A DNA stretch of 64,000 nt, taken from IMG/VR virus record IMGVR_UViG_3300021961_000044, positions 1 to 64,000 of that record; one strand, 5' to 3'. Below the pieces are notes generated by a model, which worked only from the letters and a program-made list of their open reading frames with translations, was not told where the DNA came from and made no database searches. A program made the translations under genes and the position numbers. This document shows, in pieces, positions 28,066 to 43,022 of the stretch (the stretch's first letter is position 1; the number at the start of each line of letters is the position of its first letter). Source of the DNA: a virus.

Positions 28066-28299
28066 ATGGATTATATTAAAGTTGAGGGTCACTCAAATTT
28101 AAAGAGAGACCCTCATACAAATTCCATCATCAATGATAATATGAAAGAATATAATGAATATATGAAAAGAAAAAACCTTAAATCTAAAGAGACTGATAAG
28201 ATACAAAACATTGAGGATGATCTTGCTAGAATTAAGGATGATATGGATGAATTAAAAACCTTAATAAGGAGTCTTATCAATGGATCCAGACAAAATTGA
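28066..28299 (+). CDS. Conserved small coiled-coil protein, 77 aa
   Basis: IKVEGHSNLKRDPHTNSIIN plus a C-terminal heptad region; usual position after the VrlC-like gene. Confidence 0.8.
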   Translation: MDYIKVEGHSNLKRDPHTNSIINDNMKEYNEYMKRKNLKSKETDKIQNIEDDLARIKDDMDELKTLIRSLINGSRQN

Positions 28300-28456
28300 A
28301 CTCACAAATTTAAATAAATCTTTGACATATGTCAAATCTGCAAGAGAGATTGATAAAGTAGATGACATAGAAGTGTTGAGAAACATTGCTAAAACATATG
28401 TCAAATTATATCTTAAGCAACAAGAAGTTCTTGCTTTTATCGGTGTTCCTGGGTAA
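28280..28456 (+). CDS. 58-aa two-helix protein, possibly NblA-like (MDPDKIELTNLNKSLTYVKSAREIDKVDDIEVLRNIAKTYVKLYLKQQEVLAFIGVPG)
   Basis: TAAGGAG RBS at 28265-28271, ATG 28280 to TAA 28456; absent from the ORF track. The ORF is well supported; the NblA call rests on by-eye pattern only. Confidence 0.6.
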   Translation: MDPDKIELTNLNKSLTYVKSAREIDKVDDIEVLRNIAKTYVKLYLKQQEVLAFIGVPG

Positions 28457-32277: not shown

Positions 32278-32613
32278 ATGTCCGTTGCCGCAGTAAACAT
32301 AAGAATTGAAAAAGGCACTGATTTTGAATCAACTTTTACAGTCAATTCTACAGATGGATCTGCTTTCAATCTATCAAATTATAGTGCTACTGCAAAAATT
32401 AGGAAACATCCTAATGCTGGAACCGCAAAAACTTTTTCAACAACAATTACTTCATCTACGGGTGAAATAAAAATAACAATGAGTGATACAGATACCTCTG
32501 ATTTATCATCTGGAAGAAATTACTATGATGTAGTTATTCAACATTCATCTACAGAGAAGAAAACAAAAGTATTTGAAGGAATGGCAATAGTATCGGATAC
32601 CGTTTCCGTATAG
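32278..32613 (+). CDS. Small Ig-like virion adaptor protein (BppU N-terminal-like), 111 aa
   Basis: NIRIEKGTDFESTF...FNLSNYSATAKIRK...GRNYYDVVI...KVFEG beta-sandwich pattern; late promoter ACTAAATA at 32246-32253. Confidence 0.6.
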   Translation: MSVAAVNIRIEKGTDFESTFTVNSTDGSAFNLSNYSATAKIRKHPNAGTAKTFSTTITSSTGEIKITMSDTDTSDLSSGRNYYDVVIQHSSTEKKTKVFEGMAIVSDTVSV

Positions 32614-32617
32614 TAAA

Positions 32618-32935
32618 ATGGAATTTAAAGTAACTCTGGTAACAGGACAAAATTACAGTGTTCGTCTTAAAGAAGACAATAAATTCAAAGTAATTTCAAA
32701 TCTTACGCAGGCAGCAGAAGTGGCTAATTTTTCAGATTTAGGAGATTTTGACAATACTGGTGTTCAGGACGGATGGGTTCTGATGTACGACTCTGCAACT
32801 GGAAAAATTAAAACAGTTAATCCAGATCTCGTGTTCAGTAAAGCTGTTGCGGATAACAGTCTTCCTAGTGAGTTTATTGATCAATTGGATGGAGATCTTG
32901 ATGATAAGATCGATCTTGATGCGGGCTCTTTTTAG
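32618..32935 (+). CDS. Hypothetical fibre-associated protein, 105 aa, ending IDLDAGSF
   Basis: FSDLGDFDNTGVQDGWVLMYDSATGK fibre-type repeat. Confidence 0.7.
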   Translation: MEFKVTLVTGQNYSVRLKEDNKFKVISNLTQAAEVANFSDLGDFDNTGVQDGWVLMYDSATGKIKTVNPDLVFSKAVADNSLPSEFIDQLDGDLDDKIDLDAGSF

Positions 32936-32941
32936 AAAAAT

Positions 32942-32949
32942 TATAAATA
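32942..32949 (+). promoter_or_regulatory. Late promoter (perfect consensus)
   Basis: TATAAATA. Confidence 0.8.
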
Positions 32950-32982
32950 ATTACACTAAAAATATAATAAGGTATAATTAAG

Positions 32983-35073
32983 ATGCCTGCACCTGTAATT
33001 CAATTTAAAAGGGGCAATTTAAGCAATCTTCCTGGTTTACAGGCTGGTGAACCCGCATTTACAACTGATACGTTCGACCTGTTTGTTGGATTATCTTCAA
33101 CCACTGATGCCAATAAGTTTTTTGGTTCTCATAGATATTGGAATAAAGAATCTACAACTTCTGGAAGTTCAGTAAATTTAGTCGAAGGAACTTCCAACGG
33201 TTCCAGTTATATCAGTTTAAAATCTCCAGATTCTCTTGCTGGCGTCACTACATATACTCTTCCAGCAGTTCCAGTTAATGGATATTTTCTGAAAACAAAC
33301 GCAGATGGAGAATTGTCTTGGGGACAAGCTGCGTCTTTTGCTGGAATCGTAACCTTTACCGATACTACAGAAAATACCTTAGGAAATGCGGACACTGGTG
33401 CTGTTCAAATTGATGGTGGACTGGGAGTTAATAAAAACGTTACTGTTGGTGGAAATTTAAACGTACAAGGATATTCTGAGTTTGTTGGTGTTGTAACATT
33501 CCAAGGTGGAACCATTAATCTTGGAGATTCTGATGCAGATGATATCAATGTTGCTGGTGAATTTGTATCCAACTTAATTCCAAATGCCACAGCTGAATAT
33601 GATTTGGGAAATGGTGATAAGAAATGGAGAAGTTTAAATGTCTCTGGATTCTGCACAAGTGGTGGGTTAAGAGTTGCTGGTCCTGCACAAGTTGGATCTT
33701 TAACAGTCGATTCTGATTTAAATGTAATTGGCAATGTAACTATTGGCGGTACATCTTTAAGTGTTTCCGCACAGTCTCTTGTAATTCGTGATCCTGACAT
33801 TGTTCTTGGATATAGAACAGATGGTAGCAATAACGATATTTCTACTGACACTACTGCCAATCATGGTGGTATCGCAATTGCATCTACAGAAGGATATCCT
33901 TTAGTAGATTTAGTAATTGCTGGAGTTGAAACATCTCCAGTAACTTATAAGAAATTGATGTGGTTTAAATCAGAGTCTTTCTCTGGTTTAGGCACAGATG
34001 CATGGTTATCAAACTATGCTATTGGTATTGGAAGCACACAGTTCCCAACAGGAACAAGATTAGCTGCTGGAAATGTTCAGTTTACTCAAGAAGATTTATC
34101 AGTTGTAAGAAATATCAATGCTTCTGGTGTTGGTACATTTGCTGGCGCACTTTACGTTGCAGGACTCGAAATTAGTGGTGGCGCTTCTATTGGAGAAGAT
34201 ATTAGAACAAGAAACTTAGATGTATCTGGAATTACAACGTTAGGTAATACAAGTACAGATATAGTTCAAATTTATGGTGATGCTAATTTTATTGCTTCTG
34301 TTCAAGCAGTAAACATCAATTCAAGTGGAATTGTAACTGCTACTACTTTTGATGGTAATTTAGCGCTTTCAAATGTTACTGGTCTTGGTGCTAATGTTTC
34401 TACATTCTTAGCAACTCCTTCCTCCGCAAACTTAGCAGCTGCAGTAACAGATGAAACTGGCACTGGTGCTCTCGTATTTGCAAACAGTCCAACATTAATA
34501 ACTCCTGCTCTTGGAGATGCATCTGCTACTACATTAACTACAAGTGGCGATGTAATAGTTGGAACCGCCATGAGCGCTCCAACTGTAAGAACAGCAACGA
34601 TTACTCATTCTAACGGTACTAATGCTGCTACAATTGATTCTAGTGGAAATTTAACTGCATCTCAAAATTTAACAGTTACAGGAAACCTGTATGTTAATGG
34701 ATCAACCACTCAAGTAAATACTTCTTCGATGACCGTCGAAGACAGAACAATTGAGTTAGGTTTGGTAGATGGTTCTGCTCCTTCATCAGCAACTACTTGG
34801 GACCTTGGTGTTCTCTTCAATTATAATTCTTCAGGTGCTAAGAAGTCTGCTGTTCTTTGGGAACATGCTGATGGAAGATTTAAGTTTGGATCACAAGTAA
34901 GCGATGGTGGAGGAACTGATAACGATAGTCCACAAATTACCGTTTCTAACTATGCTGCGATTGAAGTAAGTTCAATTTGGATTAATGATTGTGCTGGACA
35001 ATCACAATTAATTGATTGTTCTGGAGGAGTGAGAACACTTCAAAACATAACTATCGATGGCGGTTCGTTCTGA
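32983..35073 (+). CDS. Fibre protein with Mtd-N/hyaluronidase-N-like head, 696 aa
   Basis: Starts PVIQFKRGNLSNLPGLQAGEPAFTTDT; contains TPSSANLAAAVTDETGTGALVFANSPTL and GNLYVNGSTTQVNT fibre repeats; ends IDGGSF. Confidence 0.75.
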   Translation: MPAPVIQFKRGNLSNLPGLQAGEPAFTTDTFDLFVGLSSTTDANKFFGSHRYWNKESTTSGSSVNLVEGTSNGSSYISLKSPDSLAGVTTYTLPAVPVNGYFLKTNADGELSWGQAASFAGIVTFTDTTENTLGNADTGAVQIDGGLGVNKNVTVGGNLNVQGYSEFVGVVTFQGGTINLGDSDADDINVAGEFVSNLIPNATAEYDLGNGDKKWRSLNVSGFCTSGGLRVAGPAQVGSLTVDSDLNVIGNVTIGGTSLSVSAQSLVIRDPDIVLGYRTDGSNNDISTDTTANHGGIAIASTEGYPLVDLVIAGVETSPVTYKKLMWFKSESFSGLGTDAWLSNYAIGIGSTQFPTGTRLAAGNVQFTQEDLSVVRNINASGVGTFAGALYVAGLEISGGASIGEDIRTRNLDVSGITTLGNTSTDIVQIYGDANFIASVQAVNINSSGIVTATTFDGNLALSNVTGLGANVSTFLATPSSANLAAAVTDETGTGALVFANSPTLITPALGDASATTLTTSGDVIVGTAMSAPTVRTATITHSNGTNAATIDSSGNLTASQNLTVTGNLYVNGSTTQVNTSSMTVEDRTIELGLVDGSAPSSATTWDLGVLFNYNSSGAKKSAVLWEHADGRFKFGSQVSDGGGTDNDSPQITVSNYAAIEVSSIWINDCAGQSQLIDCSGGVRTLQNITIDGGSF

Positions 35074-35092
35074 TAGATAAAATATAATTTCT

Positions 35093-35124
35093 AAATAGGG
35101 GAAGTAATCTTCCCCTATTTTTTT
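35093..35124 (+). terminator. Terminator-like hairpin overlapping a late promoter
   Basis: AAATAGGGGAAG-taat-CTTCCCCTATTT followed by TTTT; TCTAAATA at 35090-35097. Confidence 0.7.
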
Positions 35125-35355
35125 ATGTCTGAAGAAGAATATAAGTCTGTTATTGCAACATATCAGCAAAAAGCATTTGAACTTTTTAATTCAAATATAG
35201 TTTTAGAATCACAAATACAAGCACAAAGATCCACTATTGAATCCTTAAGAACAGAAATAGAGCAAATGTCTTTTGAACTACAAACTCTTAGAGATCTTAG
35301 AGAAAAAGGAGAACAACAATCAAAAATAACTAAAAAAACTAGTATATCTCAATAA
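35125..35355 (+). CDS. Small coiled-coil protein, 76 aa (possible fibre assembly chaperone)
   Basis: Heptad-rich sequence located between fibre genes. Confidence 0.65.
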   Translation: MSEEEYKSVIATYQQKAFELFNSNIVLESQIQAQRSTIESLRTEIEQMSFELQTLRDLREKGEQQSKITKKTSISQ

Positions 35356-35415
35356 CATAAATAAATTATACCGATAAATATCGGTTTTTTTACGGTAAAT
35401 ACCACACCAAATTGA

Positions 35416-36084
35416 ATGGCCGATCCGAATATTAGGATAAAACGGTCTGCCATACCTGGCAAACAGCCTACGGCAGATCAGCTCCCGTTGGGAGAACTAG
35501 CTTTAAATACTAATGATGGAAAACTCTTTGCCTCTAAAAATGCAGGCATAGGCACAACAGTTTTCGCTGTAAACCCGTGGTCGGTTGGAACAGGAACCGA
35601 TTCTTATAATGCATATTTTACTGCTGGAAATGTTGGTGTTGGTAGCACAATCCCCACATCTAAATTAGATGTAGAGGGTGACATCAATGTTTCTGGTGTA
35701 ATAACTGCTAGTCAATTTATTGGTGGTGGTGTTGGTGTTGGAATTCAATCTGGGGGCACTGTCCTTGGATATGGAATTACAACACTGAATTTTATTGGTA
35801 CTGGAAATACTTTCTCTGTTAGCGGAACTACTGTCGATATCAGCATAGCTGCTGGTAGTGGAGGTGGTGGAACTGGAATCAGTTCCGTGATCATACAGAA
35901 AGATGGAACAAATATAGGTACTGGTTCCAGTACTATAAATTTCACTGGAACAGGTATTCAAACTGTTACATCATCTCCTAGCGGGATTACGACTGTTAGG
36001 GTTGAACTACAAGGCAATCTTGATGGTGGATTGCCAGATTCAAATTACGGCGGCATCGAAGCTATTGAAGGGGGAGGAATCTAA
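35416..36084 (+). CDS. Short fibre/connector protein, 222 aa
   Basis: Starts NIRIKRSAIPGKQPTADQLPLGELALNTNDGKLF; two TTLNFIG/STINFTG repeats; ends LDGG...IEGGGI. Confidence 0.75.
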   Translation: MADPNIRIKRSAIPGKQPTADQLPLGELALNTNDGKLFASKNAGIGTTVFAVNPWSVGTGTDSYNAYFTAGNVGVGSTIPTSKLDVEGDINVSGVITASQFIGGGVGVGIQSGGTVLGYGITTLNFIGTGNTFSVSGTTVDISIAAGSGGGGTGISSVIIQKDGTNIGTGSSTINFTGTGIQTVTSSPSGITTVRVELQGNLDGGLPDSNYGGIEAIEGGGI

Positions 36085-39000
36085 ATGGCAACAAGAATTC
36101 AAATAAGAAGAGGCACTGCCGCTGCATGGACCTCAGCTAACCCTATTCTTGCCGAGGGTGAACTTGGCGTAGAGTTAGATACACAGAAATTTAAAATTGG
36201 TATTGGAACAACCAGTTGGAGTGGTCTAAGTTATGCAACTGGTATTCAAGGAACCACTGGTGCCCAGGGAATCCAAGGAACAACAGGTATCCAAGGGGAT
36301 ACTGGTATTCAAGGCATTACTGGTAGAGGTCTGAATATTGTAGGAAACGTTGCTACAGTTGGAGATCTCCCAGATCCCTATAGTGGATCTATTGGAGATG
36401 CTTATGTTGTAACAGGAACAGGCGATCTTCACGTTTATAATGGAACGAGTTTCGATAACGTTGGACAAATTGTTGGTCCTCAAGGAACCACTGGCGCTCA
36501 AGGAACCCAGGGTATCCAAGGCGAATCAATTCAAGGTACAACTGGATATAATGGTACCCAAGGAACTCAGGGTATTCAGGGTGATGATGGTGCTCAAGGA
36601 ATTGCTGGTGCCTTCGCTGCACAAGGTATTCAAGGAACCCAAGGTATTCAAGGTAGAGAACCTGATGTAGCACAAACAGAAAAAAATACAATTACCTTTT
36701 CTGCTACTGAAGGTCAAGTATCTTTTGGAGCAACATACGTTCCAAATGCGATTGATGTTTATCTGAATGGTGTCAGATTATCAGAATCGGAATATGTAGG
36801 AACAAGTGGAACTCACATTCTTCTTAATGATGGTGCTAATATAGGGGATGTTTTAGATCTCGTTAAATTTGACTTTGGTAATGCTTTTAGAGGTCTTCAA
36901 GGCGTACAAGGTCTTCAAGGATTACAAGGAGTTCAGGGTCTTCAAGGACCACAGGGAACAACTGGTATTCAAGGTGATGTTGGTATTCAAGGAAGTACTG
37001 GTGCTCAGGGAACTCAGGGAGTCCAAGGAACAACTGGTATCCAAGGTGATGTTGGTACCCAAGGAACTCAAGGGGTTCAAGGTGTTCAAGGCGAAATTGG
37101 ATCTCAGGGTCTTGATGGTGCATATGCAGCACAAGGTATCCAAGGCATCCAAGGTATTCAAGGTTTAACACCTGACGTTGCTCAAACAAGCAAGACAACA
37201 ATTAGTTTTTCTGCCAATGAAGGTCAAACTTCTTTTGCAGGAACATATGTAGCAGGAGCAATAGACGTATTCTTAAATGGCGTAAGATTATCAGAATCGG
37301 AATACGTAGGAACAAGTGCAACTAATATCGTCTTAAACGACCCTGCTAACGCTGGAGACGTACTTGATCTTGTTAAGTTTGATTTTGGTAATGCTCTGAG
37401 AGGTTTGCAAGGTGTTCAAGGAACACAAGGTATTCAGGGCGATCTTGGTATTCAGGGTATTCAAGGTCTTGACGGTGCTTATGCCGCTCAAGGTATCCAA
37501 GGTCCACAAGGTACTGATGGTGTTCAAGGAACAAGTGGTCGTGGTGTTACCATTCTTGGTAGTGTTTCTACATCTACAAATCTTCCAGGATATCCAACTT
37601 CTTATGGTGGATCTGTTGGTGATGGATATATCACTTTAGACACAGGTCACTTATGGACTTGGAACGGTAGTTCTTGGGACGATGTTGGTAACATCACAGG
37701 TCCACAAGGAACTACTGGAACACAGGGAACTCGTGGTATTCAGGGAACTACTGGTTCTCAGGGTCAAACAGGTATTCAGGGCGACTTAGGTATCCAAGGT
37801 ATTCAAGGAGAGGCATTACAGGGCGTTCAGGGGACGACTGGTATTCAAGGTGATCTTGGCATTCAGGGCGCTACTGGTGCTGGTATACAAGGTGCTACTG
37901 GCACTCAAGGTGAAACAGGTACTCAAGGTACAACAGGTACTCAAGGTCTTGATGGTGCCTTTGCTGCACAAGGTATCCAAGGTATTCAAGGTATCCAGGG
38001 TTTAACACCTGACGTTGCTCAAACAAGTAAGTCAACCATCACATTCTCCGCTAATGAAGGACAAACTTCTTTTGCTGGAACATATGTAGCGGGAGCTATT
38101 GATGTTTATTTGAATGGTGTTAGATTATCCGATTCTGAATATGTTGGAACAAGTGCAACCAATATTGTTCTCAACGATCCCGCCAACGCTGGAGACGTAC
38201 TTGATCTTGTCAAGTTTGATTTTGGTAATGCATTAAGAGGTCTTCAGGGAATTCAAGGAACAACTGGTATTCAAGGTTTTACTGGTATCCAGGGAAGTGA
38301 TGGTGCCCAGGGTCTTGCTGGTGAATATGCAGCACAAGGTATTCAAGGTACTGATGGTTCACAAGGTACCGATGGTACTCAAGGAACTACAGGACCTCAA
38401 GGAACCACTGGAACTCAAGGAACCACTGGAACTCAGGGAACACAAGGTATTCAAGGTGACAGTGGTCGTGGTGTTACTATTCTCGGTAGTGTTTCGACAT
38501 ATACAAGTCTTCCAGGATATCCAACTTCTTATAGTGGAAATATTGGAGATGGATACATTACTACCAATACTGGTCACTTATGGACTTGGAACGGTAGTTC
38601 TTGGGACGATGTTGGTAACATCACAGGTCCACAAGGAACTACGGGAACGCAAGGAACTCAGGGTGTACAGGGACCTTCAATTCAAGGTGCTCAAGGAACA
38701 ACTGGAATTCAGGGAACAACTGGAACTCAGGGAACTACAGGTCCACAAGGAACTACAGGTTTACAGGGAACTACAGGTCTCCAAGGTTTAACTGGTATTC
38801 AAGGAGACACAGGTCTTCAAGGTTTAACTGGTGTTCAGGGAACGGACGGTCTTGGAGCACTTACAGGAGTTACATCTGTAACTAGTGGAACATTCTTCCC
38901 ACTTTTCGTTTCTGGAACTGGAGATGTTTCTCCAAATATCAGAACAGAAGCAACCGCATTTGGTTATGACGCAGGAACCAACACTGTTACTGCCACAAAC

Positions 39001-39282
39001 TTCAATACAACATCGGACATTACACTGAAGAAAAATGTCAATATTATTGAAAATGCTATTGATTCGGTAAAACTTATCAACGGTGTCAAATTTGACTGGA
39101 AAGATAACGGAAGACCTTCTATTGGTGTTATCGCTCAAGATGTTGAGCAAGTTTATCCAGAATTGGTTTATGAAGTAGACGGACAGAAGACATTAAACTA
39201 TAGCGGTTTAATAGGTGTTCTTGTTGAAGCAGTTAAAGACCTTCAGCAACAAATTAACAATCTAAATAGTACTACAGGTTAA
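36085..39282 (+). CDS. Collagen-like fibre with Mtd N-terminal domain and C-terminal peptidase S74 intramolecular chaperone, 1065 aa
   Basis: RIQIRRGTAAAWTSANPILAEGELGVELDT (Mtd_N-like); long G-X-Y tracts; TSDITLKKN...GVIAQDVE...LNYSGLIGVLVEAVKDL (S74-type). Confidence 0.88.
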   Translation: MATRIQIRRGTAAAWTSANPILAEGELGVELDTQKFKIGIGTTSWSGLSYATGIQGTTGAQGIQGTTGIQGDTGIQGITGRGLNIVGNVATVGDLPDPYSGSIGDAYVVTGTGDLHVYNGTSFDNVGQIVGPQGTTGAQGTQGIQGESIQGTTGYNGTQGTQGIQGDDGAQGIAGAFAAQGIQGTQGIQGREPDVAQTEKNTITFSATEGQVSFGATYVPNAIDVYLNGVRLSESEYVGTSGTHILLNDGANIGDVLDLVKFDFGNAFRGLQGVQGLQGLQGVQGLQGPQGTTGIQGDVGIQGSTGAQGTQGVQGTTGIQGDVGTQGTQGVQGVQGEIGSQGLDGAYAAQGIQGIQGIQGLTPDVAQTSKTTISFSANEGQTSFAGTYVAGAIDVFLNGVRLSESEYVGTSATNIVLNDPANAGDVLDLVKFDFGNALRGLQGVQGTQGIQGDLGIQGIQGLDGAYAAQGIQGPQGTDGVQGTSGRGVTILGSVSTSTNLPGYPTSYGGSVGDGYITLDTGHLWTWNGSSWDDVGNITGPQGTTGTQGTRGIQGTTGSQGQTGIQGDLGIQGIQGEALQGVQGTTGIQGDLGIQGATGAGIQGATGTQGETGTQGTTGTQGLDGAFAAQGIQGIQGIQGLTPDVAQTSKSTITFSANEGQTSFAGTYVAGAIDVYLNGVRLSDSEYVGTSATNIVLNDPANAGDVLDLVKFDFGNALRGLQGIQGTTGIQGFTGIQGSDGAQGLAGEYAAQGIQGTDGSQGTDGTQGTTGPQGTTGTQGTTGTQGTQGIQGDSGRGVTILGSVSTYTSLPGYPTSYSGNIGDGYITTNTGHLWTWNGSSWDDVGNITGPQGTTGTQGTQGVQGPSIQGAQGTTGIQGTTGTQGTTGPQGTTGLQGTTGLQGLTGIQGDTGLQGLTGVQGTDGLGALTGVTSVTSGTFFPLFVSGTGDVSPNIRTEATAFGYDAGTNTVTATNFNTTSDITLKKNVNIIENAIDSVKLINGVKFDWKDNGRPSIGVIAQDVEQVYPELVYEVDGQKTLNYSGLIGVLVEAVKDLQQQINNLNSTTG
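36660..38240 (+). repeat. Three copies of a ~75-aa beta-sandwich module (about 36660-36893, 37170-37403, 38010-38240) in the collagen fibre
   Basis: PDVAQT.K.TI.FSA.EGQ.SF..TYV..AIDV.LNGVRLS.SEYVGTS.T.I.LND.AN.GDVLDLVKFDFGNA.RG repeated three times. Confidence 0.9.
37645..38642 (+). repeat. 71-bp exact direct repeat (37645-37715 and 38572-38642)
   Basis: ggtcacttatggacttggaacggtagttcttgggacgatgttggtaacatcacaggtccacaaggaactac occurs twice, 927 bp apart. Confidence 0.9.
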
Positions 39283-39291
39283 TCTAGATAA

Positions 39292-39744
39292 ATGAACAAA
39301 ACTAGAGAAGTTGCAAACTTAGTTACTGAGAATAATATCTTTGTTAGCACCTCTAATAATAGAGTTGGCGTCGGATCCACTGTACCAGTAAGTAAACTCG
39401 ATGTTACTGGAGATGTGACTGCTGACAACTTCAATTCGGCTTCTGATGAGTCGATGAAGAAAAATATTGTCAGTATCGCAGATGCTATCGCAAAACTCGA
39501 TAGAATCAATGGCGTTTCTTTCGTATGGAAAGAAACAAATACCAAATCATATGGAGTTACTGCTCAAAATGTTCAGAGCGTATTTCCAGAACTGGTAAAT
39601 GATAATGGATCACACTTAACAGTCAATTATAATGGGTTAATTGGCGTTTTGATTGCTGCCGTAAAAGAACAACAAAAACTAATTGGTACTTTGTCGGACA
39701 GATTAGATGCTTTAGAAGGAAATAACCAAAGTGAAAACGTTTAA
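39292..39744 (+). CDS. Mini-fibre with peptidase S74 chaperone domain, 150 aa
   Basis: ASDESMKKNI...INGVSFVWKE...GVTAQNVQSVFPELV...VNYNGLIGVLIAAVKE. Confidence 0.8.
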   Translation: MNKTREVANLVTENNIFVSTSNNRVGVGSTVPVSKLDVTGDVTADNFNSASDESMKKNIVSIADAIAKLDRINGVSFVWKETNTKSYGVTAQNVQSVFPELVNDNGSHLTVNYNGLIGVLIAAVKEQQKLIGTLSDRLDALEGNNQSENV

Positions 39745-39886
39745 ACAATTTCAAGAGGATTGGAGTAATAAATATAAAAAGAGTATCGATTGCTCTAACC
39801 CAAAAGGATTTTCCCAAAAAGCACATTGTGCGGGAAGAGCAAAAAGAGCAAGAGGTGAGAAAACAGCATCTAAATCAGTTTCATGA
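39731..39886 (+). CDS. Small basic putative capsid-internal protein, 51 aa (MKTFKQFQEDWSNKYKKSIDCSNPKGFSQKAHCAGR...)
   Basis: GTG 39731 to TGA 39886, coupled by ATGA to the next gene. N-terminus resembles the T4 capsid-targeting sequence. Not in the ORF track. Confidence 0.7.
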   Translation: MKTFKQFQEDWSNKYKKSIDCSNPKGFSQKAHCAGRAKRARGEKTASKSVS

Positions 39887-41325
39887 AAAAGTATTGTCGT
39901 CTTTGTAAGAAAAAAGAACATCGTGAGGAATGCGGATTTGGTCCCAAAATGTGGGACAAGTATTCTGTAGATGATGCTACCGATAAAGAGCAAGAAACTG
40001 CTGCGAAAGAATCTGGAATTATTGATGTTGAAGAAGAAAACAAGAGTGGTGATAGTTCTTTGCGTGACTGGTTTACTAAGAGTCGCGCTTCTGATGGCAC
40101 CCCTGGTTGGGTTCAATTGGGCGGCAAATATGCAGGAAAACCCTGCGCCAAACAACCAGGACAAACAACTAAACCCAAGTGCGGTTCCAGCAAAATGAAG
40201 CGCAATCTTGACAAAGGTGAAGAAGAAGCGGCATTCCGTCGTAAAAATCGTAAAGATCCAAATCCAGATAGAGAGGGTAAGGCAATCAACGTGGCTACTG
40301 AAGAAATGAATTTGGATGAAAAGTGCTGGCAAGGATACACACAGAAAGGTATGAAAAAGAAAGGCAATAAAGTTGTTCCTAACTGTGTTTCTGTTGGCGA
40401 GGAAAAAGAAAAAGATCACGAATACTCTATGGCTCGTTCTGAGATAAAAACTCTCAAAAATGCTGCTAAGAGATTAGAAAAGAAAATGGGCAAAAAGGGT
40501 GAGGGAAATCTTGAAGCCTGGGTTCAATCCAAAATCACAAAAGCGGCGGATTATATTGACACAGCTGCGGACTATGTTACCAATGAAGAAAAAGATGCAT
40601 GTTACCATAAGGTAAAGTCTCGTTATAAAGTTTGGCCAAGTGCATATGCTTCTGGTGCATTAGTTAAGTGTCGCAAAAAAGGTGCTAAAAACTGGGGCAA
40701 GAGTACCAATAAAGAAGGATATGAATATTCAAACTGGAGAGAAGACTTCAAAGCAATGGAATATGAATTCATTGATGTGATTACTCCAGATCCACTGGAA
40801 CCAACAAAGGGAATTGGCAGTGAAATGATCGGAATTGAAGAGGCAGTAAGAGTTCCTCAAAAAACAGGAACAATTGTTTTTGTATACCTTACTTTTAGAG
40901 GAAAAGCATATACCATTCAAATGTTCTTCCCATCAGTAAAACTTCCAAGTAGATCTGAAATTCAAGATCAGATTGATAAGGTATATCCTGGAGGAAAGGT
41001 GAGAAGTTATCACACATCTGATTACAAACCAGGAGAACCAGTTTTTCATACAGAAGATTGGCAAAAAGTTAATAGACAAGATAAAACCGATGGATTAAGT
41101 CCTGCTGCTGTAAAAGCATACCGCAGAGAAAATCCAGGTTCTAAACTGAAGACCGCTGTGACCAAGAAACCATCAGAACTTAAAGCAGGTTCTAAGGATG
41201 CAAAGCGTCGTAAGTCGTTCTGTTCAAGAATGAGTGGCATGAAGAGGCGTCTCACTTCTGCTAAAACTGCCAGAGATCCTGATAGCAGAATCAACAAAGC
41301 ACTCCGTCGTTGGAACTGTAACTAA
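39883..41325 (+). CDS. Multi-module basic protein, probable capsid-internal polyprotein, 480 aa
   Basis: Lys/Arg/Cys-rich modules separated by Glu-ending linkers; C-terminal RRKSFCSRM...DPDSRINKALRRWNC. Confidence 0.7.
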   Translation: MKKYCRLCKKKEHREECGFGPKMWDKYSVDDATDKEQETAAKESGIIDVEEENKSGDSSLRDWFTKSRASDGTPGWVQLGGKYAGKPCAKQPGQTTKPKCGSSKMKRNLDKGEEEAAFRRKNRKDPNPDREGKAINVATEEMNLDEKCWQGYTQKGMKKKGNKVVPNCVSVGEEKEKDHEYSMARSEIKTLKNAAKRLEKKMGKKGEGNLEAWVQSKITKAADYIDTAADYVTNEEKDACYHKVKSRYKVWPSAYASGALVKCRKKGAKNWGKSTNKEGYEYSNWREDFKAMEYEFIDVITPDPLEPTKGIGSEMIGIEEAVRVPQKTGTIVFVYLTFRGKAYTIQMFFPSVKLPSRSEIQDQIDKVYPGGKVRSYHTSDYKPGEPVFHTEDWQKVNRQDKTDGLSPAAVKAYRRENPGSKLKTAVTKKPSELKAGSKDAKRRKSFCSRMSGMKRRLTSAKTARDPDSRINKALRRWNCN

Positions 41326-41654
41326 TGAAAAACTTCAAACAATTTCTATCAGAAAGCGTCACTATTCACGGTGATTTTAATGGAACTCTTAATGTAGGTT
41401 CTGATCCAGTTCAACAAAAAGTTAATGAGCAGAATCAATATATTGCTGATGTTGTTTGGATGGGAAGTATTTACAGAATGAAAATCGAAAGAAAAGAATC
41501 GTTAAGACTTCCATCGACTCAAGAACTAGCAGAACAACTCCAGGGAGAATATCCTGGAGCAATCGTTCAAAGGATTTATCCATTAGAACCAAAACCAACA
41601 GTAAAAATCGCAGACGTAAAAAGGTATCATCCAGGAAAATTAGAGTGGGTATAA
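41325..41654 (+). CDS. Putative capsid-internal protein, 109 aa
   Basis: N-terminal MKNFKQFLSE, capsid-targeting-like and sharing FLSE with the predicted gp23 maturation site. Confidence 0.7.
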   Translation: MKNFKQFLSESVTIHGDFNGTLNVGSDPVQQKVNEQNQYIADVVWMGSIYRMKIERKESLRLPSTQELAEQLQGEYPGAIVQRIYPLEPKPTVKIADVKRYHPGKLEWV

Positions 41655-41657
41655 ATT

Positions 41658-43022
41658 ATGGCTCAGTGGAATAAAGAAACTCAAGATTATTTAAATCAAG
41701 AAAGAACTCTTCATGAAGTTTTCATGTGTGCCGACAGGTATGGCAACATTGGAAATTGTGGCGTTTCCACTGGTGCTGGTGGCGGTAGTTATGATGCTTT
41801 TGGTCGTTCCAGAGTATCAGAACCATTCACGCTTGCTGATTATTCTCATCAATATGGACTCAATGAAGAGATTTTATCAAAGACAGTTGGCACTGCTTCT
41901 ACAGTAGTACATGAACGGAATAAAGCATCAGCATCTCTAGTTGTTGGAACTGGTGCTACAGATAAAACCATTCACCAGACTCGTATGTATCACCATTACA
42001 TGCCTGGTAAGTCTCAGTTTGCTCTGTCCAGTTTCAATTTTCAAGATGTCAGAGAGAACACCGTAAAGAGAACTGGATACTTTGACGACTACAATGGTGT
42101 TTTTGTTCAACAAGAAGGTGATGGAACAGTTTCTATCGTAAGAAGAGATTATGTTTCTGGCATTACATCTGACACGGTTATCAATCAGTCCAGTTGGAAT
42201 CTTGATAAACTAGATGGAACAACTGTATCCGGTATTGAACTAGATTTTACTAAAACTCAATTATTCGCAACAGACTTTCAGTGGTTAGGTGTTGGTAGAC
42301 TTCGTTGTGGATTTGTCATTGGTGGACAACTTATCTACTGCCATGAGTTCAATCATTCCAATATAGAAGAGAATGTCTATTGGTCTCAACCATCACTACC
42401 TATTCGTTGCGAGGTAGCAAATACGGGTGCTGCTGTTGGCATTACATCTATGCAGCAGATTTGTTCTACCGTCATGAGTGAAGGTGGATATGAGGAAAGT
42501 GGATTTGAATTCTCTACTGGCGATACAACTGCAATTTCTCTTCCTGGTTCTAATAATGCTCCTAATCATATCAAGTGTGTAATAGCAATTCGTCTTAAGA
42601 ATACTATTAATGGGTATCAAAATAGAACGACTGTAAGGATTACAAACCTGGAACTTCTGTCTACTGCGGCACCTTGTAAGTTTGACCTTTACAGAATGCC
42701 TAGTAATTCTAATATTACTGGAGGAACATGGGTAGATTTTGATGGTGATTATTCTGGTGTCCAGTATAATGTTGGTGTTGGAACAAACTTTAATCTCACT
42801 GGAGCATATTCCAAACTCACTGGATTCTTAGCAGCAAACAATCCTTCGGGCAACCAAAATTCTGGCGATGCTCGTCTCAGTCCATCTGCAGCAAAAAAAT
42901 CTTATCTATCACAGAACATAGATAGTAATGATAGTAATATTTTTGCTGTAGTAGTTCAAAATATGACAACAAATACGGCAAATGAAATTTATGCTGCAGT
43001 TCAATGGAGAGAAACTAGATAG
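41658..43022 (+). CDS. Virion structural protein (beta-rich), 454 aa
   Basis: MAQWNK...DAFGRSRVSEPFTL...YMPGKSQ...DFQWLGVGRLRCGF; sits directly upstream of gp17. Confidence 0.7.
   Translation: MAQWNKETQDYLNQERTLHEVFMCADRYGNIGNCGVSTGAGGGSYDAFGRSRVSEPFTLADYSHQYGLNEEILSKTVGTASTVVHERNKASASLVVGTGATDKTIHQTRMYHHYMPGKSQFALSSFNFQDVRENTVKRTGYFDDYNGVFVQQEGDGTVSIVRRDYVSGITSDTVINQSSWNLDKLDGTTVSGIELDFTKTQLFATDFQWLGVGRLRCGFVIGGQLIYCHEFNHSNIEENVYWSQPSLPIRCEVANTGAAVGITSMQQICSTVMSEGGYEESGFEFSTGDTTAISLPGSNNAPNHIKCVIAIRLKNTINGYQNRTTVRITNLELLSTAAPCKFDLYRMPSNSNITGGTWVDFDGDYSGVQYNVGVGTNFNLTGAYSKLTGFLAANNPSGNQNSGDARLSPSAAKKSYLSQNIDSNDSNIFAVVVQNMTTNTANEIYAAVQWRETR

What the first reader, a model, noticed from the sequence alone, without database searches (positions are those of the whole stretch)
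32278..39744. Candidate plug-and-socket code for serial fibre assembly: D-[GA]-G tails followed by Mtd-N-like heads
Seen: consecutive fibre genes alternate a C-terminal tail motif with a related N-terminal head in the next fibre gene. ORF 32618 ends LDAGSF. ORF 32983 begins IQFKRG...L.AGEPA and ends IDGGSF. ORF 35416 begins IRIKRS...L.LGELA and ends LDGG...IEGGGI (two copies). ORF 36085 begins IQIRRG...LAEGELG and ends in an S74 chaperone with no tail motif, as expected for the last link. The chain starts with an Ig-like adaptor (32278). Established: the N-terminal domain of Bordetella phage Mtd attaches the adhesin trimer to its fibre. Inference: gene order encodes assembly order of a multi-subunit fibre in which each DGG tail plugs into the next Mtd-N socket. 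That would let segments be swapped within the variable gp16-gp17 island, and the doubled tail could be a branch point. I do not know of a description of this pairing rule.
Basis: partly seen in the sequence, partly recalled or inferred. Interest (0 to 1): 0.82.

Follow-up and report, generated by a model that had tools for sequence, protein, structure and literature searches.

The report
Peptide-and-cap joints between phage fibre genes
In a T4-like cyanophage, a row of tail-fibre genes follows a consistent rule (a short Asp-Gly-Gly tail on one protein, a matching N-terminal cap on the next) that recurs in hundreds of unrelated phages, so the proteins probably clip end to end into one modular fibre, though binding is still untested.

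Summary
In the island between the small and large terminase genes of a T4-like cyanomyovirus, ORFs 32618, 32983 and 35416 end in D-G/A-G motifs, and ORFs 32983, 35416 and 36085 begin with Mtd_N-type caps.

The motif lies at the C-terminus in 267 of 272 occurrences.
- 59% of tail genes are followed by a cap gene, against 6% of other genes.
- Among adjacent cap-bearing pairs, the tailed gene came first 40 times and second 0 times.
- New here: there are two matched classes. The simple tail (h-D-G-G-x-F/Y) precedes only caps without Trp (143:0). A bipartite tail of about 22 residues precedes only canonical Trp-containing HylP/Mtd_N caps (20:0).
- ORF 32278 has the fold of the T5/DT57C fibre-docking collar protein LtfC.

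Caveats:
- At least 40% of tails have no cap gene after them.
- A coiled-coil gene and two terminator-like hairpins separate 32983 from 35416.
- The Gly codons often double as a ribosome-binding site.
- Binding could not be tested.

This scan has noted the same pairing on other DNA. I found no published description.

The parts
32278..32613 (+). LtfC/p132-like beta-sandwich collar protein (111 aa), the proposed docking platform at the start of the chain
   Evidence: PHROG 3304 'L-shaped tail fiber protein assembly' E 1.9e-24. Pfam LtfC scores 24.1 bits, below its 27-bit cut-off. The AF2 model has pLDDT 92. The top PDB fold hits are chains of about 137-140 residues in the DT57C baseplate 8HQZ and the T5 tail tip 7QG9, TM 0.70-0.74, E about 1e-7.
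32618..32935 (+). Small adaptor (105 aa): N-terminal short strands, a hairpin, acidic helices and a simple tail LDAGSF (nt 32915-32932)
   Evidence: D101, G103 and F105 are invariant in 16 homologues. The monomer model has low confidence (pLDDT 51) and leaves the tail unstructured. Proteins of this kind follow LtfC-like genes directly in 82 of 106 distinct cases.
32942..32949 (+). TATAAATA box 34 nt before the fibre-1 start
   Evidence: One of only two copies in the window. Reading it as a T4-type late promoter rests on my own knowledge and was not tested.
32983..35073 (+). Fibre segment 1 (696 aa): Mtd_N cap without Trp (residues 1-50), variable shaft, conserved C-terminal module ending in the simple tail IDGGSF (nt 35053-35070)
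   Evidence: Pfam Mtd_N 28.8 bits against a 26.3-bit cut-off. The N-terminal 110-170 aa and the C-terminal 160-220 aa are conserved in relatives while the middle differs. In L004 the two ends lie on two separate genes.
35093..35120 (+). Terminator-like hairpin with a T-run directly after fibre 1
   Evidence: 12-pair stem; sequence read.
35125..35355 (+). 76-aa coiled-coil protein between fibre 1 and the linker protein; either a chaperone or a joint component
   Evidence: only weak coiled-coil hits. A similar small coiled-coil gene follows every fibre of the ..C-S-G..N-I-x-I-D-G-G-x-F class that I listed.
35416..36084 (+). Linker protein (222 aa): Trp-less cap-like head (residues 1-45) and bipartite tail NLDGG-x-P-x-S-x-YGG..IEGGGI (nt 36016-36081)
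   Evidence: for the head; for the tail. Its last Gly codons (GGGGGAGGA) lie 7 nt before the ATG of the next gene.
36085..39282 (+). Distal collagen-like fibre (1065 aa): canonical Trp-containing Mtd_N/HylP cap, collagen repeats, C-terminal S74 intramolecular chaperone, no tail
   Evidence: Pfam Mtd_N 44.3 bits, Collagen E 5.5e-60, Peptidase_S74 E 7e-14. The cap matches HylP 6X3M at E 5e-7.
39292..39744 (+). 150-aa ORF with an S74 chaperone domain only (no cap, no tail); its place in the chain is unclear
   Evidence: Peptidase_S74 E 3e-14. It is 51% identical to the C-terminus of ORF 36085 and is conserved in L001, L320 and L321.

Best explanation
The island encodes one segmented fibre built in gene order.
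- An LtfC-like collar protein (32278) holds a small adaptor (32618).
- The adaptor's C-terminal tail docks into the N-terminal trimeric cap of fibre segment 1 (32983).
- The linker's bipartite tail docks into the canonical HylP/Mtd_N cap of the collagen fibre (36085). That fibre ends the chain with a self-cleaving S74 chaperone.

There are two matched connector classes: simple tail with Trp-less cap, and bipartite tail with Trp-containing cap. ORF 35416 links one class to the other.

Shown: the motifs, their strict C-terminal position, the adjacency, its direction, the class matching, and the LtfC-like fold.
Inferred: that tail and cap touch, that the proteins are trimers, and where on the virion the collar sits.
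For: 1. Adjacency. Deduplicated genes: a cap gene follows 169 of 287 tail genes against 161 of 2618 others. Protein clusters of cap-bearing genes: 24 of 50 with a tail against 2 of 61 without (p 2e-8). Only genes that abut within 5 nt: 64/21 against 52/855 (OR 50).
2. Direction. Among adjacent cap-bearing pairs, the first gene alone was tailed 40 times and the second alone 0 times.
3. Class matching, from independently anchored samples. Simple tail before Trp-less cap 143, before Trp cap 0. Bipartite tail before Trp cap 20, before Trp-less cap 0. In 17 loci holding mixed classes, including the window, no cross-class adjacency was found.
4. The bipartite tail sits on carriers of 61-924 aa with unrelated bodies, 0-5 nt before or overlapping the cap gene.
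5. The motif needs a free C-terminus: 267 of 272 occurrences are terminal.
6. Cultured phages show the same pattern.
   - Streptococcus pyogenes prophage Javan525: the annotated endopeptidase gene ends ..ILDGGKK and overlaps the hylP start.
   - Arthrobacter phage Nandita: gp31 carries a bipartite tail before the gp32 cap.
   - Xylella phage Bacata and Gordonia phage Dardanus show tail-then-cap pairs.
   - Cellulophaga phi14:2: gp098 (..ILDGESLD) and the capped gp097 are both annotated as virion proteins from MS/MS proteomics.
7. The complete Synechococcus phage S-B05 genome has exactly 3 D-G-G-x-F/Y-stop sites and 2 caps, all in the same island and in chain order.
8. Topology fits. Caps are N-terminal. 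In ORF 36085 the S74 chaperone sits at the C-terminus, opposite the cap.
9. A precedent for the first link: the N-terminal strands of LtfA extend the LtfC beta-sheets in DT57C (PMC10713586).
Against: - Many tails have no cap gene after them: 118 of 287 genes and 70 of 126 clusters. This is an overestimate, because long coiled-coil genes in between and ORF-calling slips hide some pairs.
- Whole fibre families end in the tail directly before neck gene gp13.
- One 115-kb contig (53% complete) has such a tail and no detectable cap.
- Caps also occur with no tail upstream: 118 of 281, including Syn9 gp108. So the cap also docks to other partners.
- 32983 and 35416 are separated by a gene and two hairpins.
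- The Gly-Gly codons read GGAGG in 66% of junctions with a gap of 5 nt or less, against 8% of internal Gly-Gly pairs. Part of the nucleotide conservation therefore serves translation of the next gene.
- The counts rest on my own ORF calls, regexes and a head profile built from the same data, and related phages are not fully independent.
Confidence: 0.6

Rival explanations
1. The tail is an intrinsic C-terminal folding or registration element of trimeric fibre segments (foldon-like), or the tag read by the small coiled-coil chaperone. Its position before cap genes then only reflects how modular fibre genes are laid out: shaft genes first, tip or cap genes last.
For: - Tails occur on last-in-row fibres before gp13, in the position that wac holds in T4 (gene order from my own knowledge), and in a contig with no detectable cap.
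- Many tails follow a strand-turn-strand motif with Trp (..G-Q-V-L-x-x-x-x-G-x-P-x-W-x-x-x-I-D-G-G-x-F). Its layout recalls the T4 fibritin foldon, whose sequence ends ..DGEWVLLSTFL.
- A coiled-coil gene follows many tailed fibres.
- This reading can hold together with docking.
Against: - It does not explain why two tail classes match two cap classes without exception (143:0 and 0:20).
- It does not explain why tails sit on 61-110 aa proteins that have no shaft.
- No Pfam family, Fibritin_C included, was reported at E up to 1 for the 8 tailed and neighbouring proteins scanned.
Confidence: 0.2
2. The tails plug into the LtfC-like collar ring rather than into caps, so each tailed protein is anchored to the collar by its C-terminus.
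For: LtfC-like genes are followed directly by strictly tailed proteins in 82 of 106 distinct cases, and by degenerate ..GGxF ends in about 12 more. In DT57C the collar binds fibre peptides by extending its beta-sheets with their strands (PMC10713586).
Against: - Bipartite-tail and Trp-cap pairs in the Streptococcus, Arthrobacter and Xylella phages have no gene annotated as LtfC among the features listed around the junction; I did not scan those neighbours for the fold.
- The window has one LtfC-like gene and three tails.
- In DT57C the fibre's N-terminus binds the collar, not its C-terminus.
- Proteins with both cap and tail would be tethered at both ends.
Confidence: 0.1
3. The motif is a by-product of nucleotide signals: a Shine-Dalgarno sequence or translational coupling for the next gene, or a junction segment inherited as one recombination unit. 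It would then have no role in the protein.
For: - GGAGG fills the Gly-Gly codons in 66% of tight junctions, against 8% of internal Gly-Gly pairs.
- In the window GGGGGAGGA lies 7 nt before the ATG of 36085.
- Tail and cap coding sequences lie within about 100 nt of each other, so linkage alone could keep the classes together.
Against: - The motif persists with other codons where the gap exceeds 5 nt or no gene follows within 300 nt (161 tails, GGAGG in 17-28%).
- The window's first two tails lie 47 and 51 nt from the next start and use GCG GGC and GGC GGT.
- The hydrophobic residue, the Asp, the final aromatic residue and the upstream half of the bipartite tail are conserved at the amino-acid level and lie outside any ribosome-binding site.
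- Only 37 of 855 other tight junctions carry GGAGG.
Confidence: 0.05

Closest known systems
Phage T4 long tail fibre, gp34-gp35-gp36-gp37 (from my own knowledge)
   Same: A fibre built from several separately encoded proteins joined end to end, with gene order following assembly order from proximal to distal.
   Different: The T4 joints are particular to each pair and one involves the monomeric hinge gp35. Here one generic connector (short C-terminal peptide plus N-terminal cap, in two classes) recurs across unrelated phages and unrelated fibre bodies.
LtfC-LtfA attachment in T5-like phage DT57C, and T5 p132 (PMC10713586; PDB 8HQZ, 7QG9)
   Same: ORF 32278 has the same beta-sandwich fold (TM 0.70-0.74) and its gene sits directly before the fibre genes. 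In DT57C a dodecameric ring of this protein holds the fibre's N-terminal strands.
   Different: The window is a T4-like myovirus. A small adaptor of 72-108 aa lies between the collar gene and the fibre gene. Ring formation and its place on the virion are unknown. In relatives the cassette lies before the neck gene gp13.
N-terminal cap of streptococcal prophage hyaluronidase HylP and Bordetella phage Mtd (Pfam Mtd_N PF18454; PDB 6X3M, 2C3F, 2DP5)
   Same: Mtd sits at the ends of the tail fibres (PMC2408619).
   Different: I found no described partner for this cap. Here the gene upstream of hylP in prophage Javan525 also ends in ..LDGGKK, which suggests the same joint in that studied system.
T4 fibritin foldon (C-terminal trimerisation hairpin)
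   Same: A strictly C-terminal element of about 25 residues with a strand-turn-strand motif containing Trp and an aromatic residue near the end. In relatives the tailed fibres occupy the wac position before gp13.
   Different: There is no detectable sequence family relationship. The foldon is not known as a docking site for a next protein's N-terminal cap, and it has no D-G-G.
Ig-like collar and whisker assemblies of myophages Bas63, Sf14 and XM1 and podophage GP4 (PMC12609058)
   Same: Dodecameric rings of Ig-like proteins on the neck carry separately encoded fibres. The model of ORF 32278 also matches chains of the Bas63 connector entry 9MT4 (TM 0.65-0.66).
   Different: In those phages the whiskers are dimers threaded on a 'rope' peptide. 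They are not trimeric capped fibres with D-G-G tails.

Membership tests
Mtd_N (Pfam PF18454), N-terminal cap of phage fibres | Profile match above the curated cut-off (26.3 bits) at the extreme N-terminus | tested here: met
   ORF 32983 scores 28.8 bits at residues 6-36. ORF 36085 scores 44.3 bits at residues 5-43. The 36085 cap also matches HylP 6X3M at E 5e-7.
Mtd_N (Pfam PF18454), for ORF 35416 | Profile match above the curated cut-off | tested here: not met
   No Mtd_N hit for ORF 35416 (E up to 0.1) or for the N-terminal 110 residues of 13 homologues (E up to 10). The profile-profile match to the 32983 family gives E 6.5e-4, probability 27%. I call it 'cap-like', not a member.
LtfC / T5 p132 fibre-docking collar protein (Pfam PF23926, PHROG 3304) | Sequence profile match | tested here: inconclusive
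   Pfam LtfC gives 24.1 bits, below the 27-bit cut-off. PHROG 3304 gives E 1.9e-24 and PHROG 1084 gives E 3.8e-25. phmmer against PDB sequences finds nothing.
LtfC / T5 p132 fibre-docking collar protein | Single-domain beta-sandwich fold that superposes on the solved collar protein | tested here: met
   The model has pLDDT 92 and pTM 0.83. The best PDB hits are 8HQZ_T/Q (DT57C) and 7QG9_L/J (T5), E 1e-7 to 9e-7, TM 0.70-0.74. The chain identity (LtfC, p132) is inferred from chain length and the paper, not from the hit titles.
LtfC / T5 p132 fibre-docking collar protein | Forms a dodecameric ring that captures N-terminal strands of the fibre protein | not testable with these tools
Peptidase_S74 intramolecular chaperone (PF13884) | Profile match above the cut-off (22 bits) at the C-terminus | tested here: met
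   ORF 36085 scores 52.3 bits at residues 977-1029. ORF 39292 scores 53.5 bits. Autocleavage was not tested.
Multi-protein serial fibre of the T4 gp34-37 type | Consecutive gene products physically joined end to end in the virion | not testable with these tools
   Only gene order, direction and motif matching were shown. There is no binding or virion data for this phage.
Fibritin foldon (Pfam Fibritin_C) | Profile match of the C-terminal module | tested here: not met
   Pfam reported no Fibritin_C hit at E up to 1 for eight tailed and neighbouring proteins from relatives, nor at E up to 0.1 for the window's proteins. The resemblance is in layout only.

The most novel reading that the evidence does not exclude
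Tailed phages share a generic, class-coded connector for building fibres from separate proteins. A free C-terminal D-G-G peptide comes in two forms: a simple form ending in an aromatic residue, and a bipartite form of about 22 residues. Each inserts into the matching N-terminal Mtd_N-type cap of the next gene product. Small proteins such as ORF 35416 link one class to the other, and an LtfC-like collar starts the chain. Fibre segments could then be exchanged as units between phages without redesigning the joints.
Probability: 0.5. Interest if true: 0.85.

Novelty: new variant of a known kind. Interest (0 to 1): 0.72.

Why it matters
Fibres decide which bacteria a phage can infect, and marine cyanophages shape global primary production. 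A common, portable joint between fibre segments would explain how these hypervariable islands swap receptor-binding modules while keeping a working virion. It would give the widespread Mtd_N/HylP cap a partner, which I did not find described. It would let fibre architecture be read from gene order and end motifs. It would also give a rational handle for exchanging fibre segments between phages in laboratory host-range studies. The pairing is directly testable with cultured phages: Synechococcus phage S-B05, Arthrobacter phage Nandita and the Streptococcus HylP prophages.

Tried and rejected
- Monomer model of the 105-aa adaptor: pLDDT 51, too poor for a fold search.
- Sequence searches of the PDB with ORFs 32278, 32983 and 35416: only weak repeat matches to Bdellovibrio fibre proteins 8OND and 8OL4, and nothing for the tail.
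- Pfam on tailed proteins of relatives: no family covers the tail and there is no Fibritin_C hit.
- Literature searches for the tail hexapeptides, 'DGG motif' with tail fiber, Mtd_N/PF18454, and HylP attachment: nothing relevant. The A1002 'chain-like fibre' paper describes an unrelated arrangement of dimers on a rope protein.
- Search for orphan caps in five long contigs that carry the TerS region: none found. The contigs are 22-53% complete, so this says little. The positive control found all three window caps.
- Reading the tail as a mere Shine-Dalgarno site: rejected as the main cause but kept as an overlay.
- Word-based homologue search for ORF 32618: only 11 relatives, too few for covariation analysis.
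Full report
**Context.** The window is part of a 93-kb contig of a T4-like cyanomyovirus.
- gp15 (30810), the small terminase gp16 (31802) and the large terminase gp17 (43033) are recognisable.
- The nearest cultured relatives are Synechococcus phages, but only the terminase region aligns at the DNA level, so the island between gp16 and gp17 is variable.
- The island holds, in order: an LtfC-like protein, a 105-aa protein, a 696-aa fibre, a 76-aa coiled-coil protein, a 222-aa protein, a 1065-aa collagen-like fibre with an S74 chaperone, and a 150-aa S74-only ORF. Three further genes before gp17 also occur, in the same order, in the island of cultured phage S-B05.

**Observation.**
- In the whole contig, caps and tails occur only here.
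- The head of 35416 is not a Pfam Mtd_N member. It is cap-like by pattern, by my head profile and by a weak profile-profile match.

**Is the tail motif real?**
- The permuted I-G-D-G-S/T-F-stop gave 2.
- Of 236 matches, 225 close an ORF of at least 50 aa, with ORFs from about 50 to 3410 aa.
- Across all fetched ORFs the core motif is C-terminal in 267 of 272 occurrences.
- In 16 homologues of ORF 32618 the Asp, one Gly and the final Phe are invariant.

I called ORFs in 317 sources. These were 80 loci anchored on the small terminase (blind to the motifs), 236 anchored on the tail DNA, and the window's own 93-kb contig. I detected caps with a profile built from the data.
- After deduplication, a cap gene follows 169 of 287 tail genes and 161 of 2618 other genes (OR 22).
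- Among cap-bearing genes only, the figures are 60 of 114 with a tail against 6 of 94 without.
- At the level of protein clusters (40% identity), the figures are 24 of 50 against 2 of 61 (p 2e-8).
- For adjacent pairs where both genes carry a cap, the first alone is tailed in 40 pairs, the second alone in 0, both in 2 and neither in 5.
- The median distance from tail stop to cap start is 13 nt, with many one-base overlaps.
- Taking only genes that abut the next gene within 5 nt, the association stays (OR 50). Tight spacing as such does not create it.

**Two connector classes.** I drew a third sample anchored on the canonical cap of ORF 36085.
- In 17 or 18 of 24 distinct lineages the upstream gene ends in the same bipartite tail as ORF 35416. 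Its consensus is N/L-L/I-D-G-G-x-P-x-S-x-Y-G-G, then about five residues, then I/V-D/N-G-G-G-I/V.
- The carriers are 61 to 924 aa long with unrelated bodies, and the tail overlaps the cap gene or lies within 5 nt of it.
- Over all loci, a simple tail precedes a cap without the conserved Trp 143 times and a Trp cap never. A bipartite tail precedes a Trp cap 20 times and a Trp-less cap never.
- The two halves of this table come from differently anchored samples, so each is blind to the feature it reports.
- Seventeen loci, the window among them, contain mixed classes, and no cross-class adjacency was found in them.
ORF 35416, with a Trp-less cap-like head and a bipartite tail, reads as a link between the two classes.

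**Cultured phages.**
- The complete genome of Synechococcus phage S-B05 has the same island: LtfC-like, 108 aa (..IDGGGF), 79 aa (..YDGGSF), a 630-aa capped fibre (..IDGGTF), a coiled-coil protein, and a 517-aa capped protein without a tail.
- Genome-wide, S-B05 has exactly three D-G-G-x-F/Y-stop sites and two caps, all in that island.
- In Streptococcus pyogenes prophage Javan525 the annotated endopeptidase gene ends ..ILDGGKK and overlaps the start of hylP.
- Arthrobacter phage Nandita gp31 (66 aa) ends in a bipartite tail before the capped minor tail protein gp32.
- Xylella phage Bacata and Gordonia phage Dardanus show the same pattern.
- In Cellulophaga phage phi14:2 both the tail-like gp098 and the capped gp097 are annotated as virion proteins from proteomics.
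- Syn9 gp108 has a cap but no tail upstream.

**The start of the chain.**
- The model of ORF 32278 is confident (pLDDT 92). Its best structural matches are chains of the DT57C baseplate and the T5 tail tip that correspond in size to LtfC and p132.
- In DT57C a dodecameric LtfC ring captures the N-terminal strands of the fibre protein (PMC10713586).
- Ig-like dodecameric collars that carry whiskers on myophage necks are also known (PMC12609058).
- Of 106 distinct LtfC-like genes in my loci, 82 are followed directly by a protein with a strict tail, and about 12 more by a degenerate ..GGxF end.
- In many relatives the cassette (collar, adaptor, fibre) lies just before gp13, where wac lies in T4 (the T4 gene order is from my own knowledge). 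The virion site remains a guess.

**Modularity.** Relatives of the 696-aa fibre share the first 110-170 and the last 160-220 residues but differ in the middle. In L004 the two ends lie on two consecutive genes, joined by a different pair of end motifs.

**What speaks against a simple plug-and-socket rule.**
- At least 40% of tails are not followed by a cap gene. This includes fibre families that end in the tail directly before gp13, and a 115-kb contig with such a tail and no cap found. The tail module may therefore also have a role of its own in the fibre end, for example registration of the trimer. Its hairpin-plus-aromatic layout recalls the T4 foldon, but no family relationship is detectable.
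- Caps also occur without tails, so they have other docking partners.
- Within a class the tail is nearly invariant and cannot set the order of links.
- The Gly-Gly codons read GGAGG in 66% of tight junctions against 8% of internal Gly-Gly pairs. In the window GGGGGAGGA lies 7 nt before the start of ORF 36085. The codons therefore also serve translation of the next gene. This does not explain the motif itself. It persists with other codons at larger gaps, including the window's first two tails, and the flanking residues are conserved as amino acids.

**Limits.**
- The counts depend on longest-ORF calls, regexes and a self-built profile.
- The tail-anchored sample covers only two codon patterns.
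- Related phages are not independent events, although the cluster-level counts and the spread across hosts reduce this concern.

**Verdict.** End-to-end docking of consecutive fibre proteins is the best explanation (about 0.6) but remains an inference. Earlier notes of this scan report the same pairing in other genomes. I found no description in the searchable literature.

Noticed in passing
window 35125-35355; also L029, L036, L041, L099, L116, L166, L190, L199, L317 (S-B05): A small coiled-coil protein (55-220 aa) follows many tailed fibres, and follows every fibre I listed of the ..C-S-G..N-I-x-I-D-G-G-x-F class. In some lineages (S-B05, L166, L222, L267) this protein itself ends in ..DGGTF or ..DGGSF. 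Whether it is a chaperone or part of the joint is open.
   Followed up: partly
window 36064-36087; tail junctions in L081-L316: The Gly-Gly codons of the tail read GGAGG in 66% of junctions where the next gene starts within 5 nt, against 8% of internal Gly-Gly pairs. Only 37 of 855 other tight junctions carry GGAGG. The tail codons double as a strong ribosome-binding site for the cap gene.
   Followed up: yes
L004 14180-14300; L111 6838 region; L207, L223, L263, L308: Other paired end motifs exist. Proteins ending ..ALSIGEAS or ..SLSVGVAS are followed within 0-2 nt by proteins starting ..QKVDYLWKK (two lineages). Small cap-only proteins of 69-75 aa ending ..ALSIALG are followed 5 nt later by proteins of about 110 aa starting MASAFKT or MASNFKT.
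   Followed up: partly
window 39292-39744: A 150-aa ORF has only a short fibre stub and an S74 chaperone domain. It is 51% identical to the C-terminus of ORF 36085 and is conserved in three related contigs. It has neither cap nor tail, so how it would join a fibre is unclear.
   Followed up: partly
window 32942-32949, 35093-35120, 35370-35385: TATAAATA occurs only twice in the 64-kb window, once 34 nt before the fibre-1 start (the T4 late-promoter consensus, from my own knowledge). Terminator-like hairpins follow fibre 1 and the coiled-coil gene.
   Followed up: partly
window 28066-28456, compared with L031, L038, L047, L061, L068, L069, L071: In many relatives the collar-adaptor-fibre cassette lies directly before gp13, in the T4 wac position. 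The window has only two small ORFs there and carries the cassette after gp16 instead, so the cassette has moved between two sites in related phages.
   Followed up: partly
window 36085-39282: The collagen-like fibre appears to contain several tandem copies of a long module: collagen triplets plus two short globular segments that recur with high similarity. Seen by eye in the translation only.
   Followed up: no
window 39883-43022: Three genes between the fibre chain and gp17 also occur, in the same order, in phage S-B05: a Lys- and Cys-rich 480-aa protein ending ..RRWNCN, a 109-aa protein, and a 454-aa protein whose S-B05 counterpart is annotated 'virion structural protein'. Their function is unknown.
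   Followed up: no
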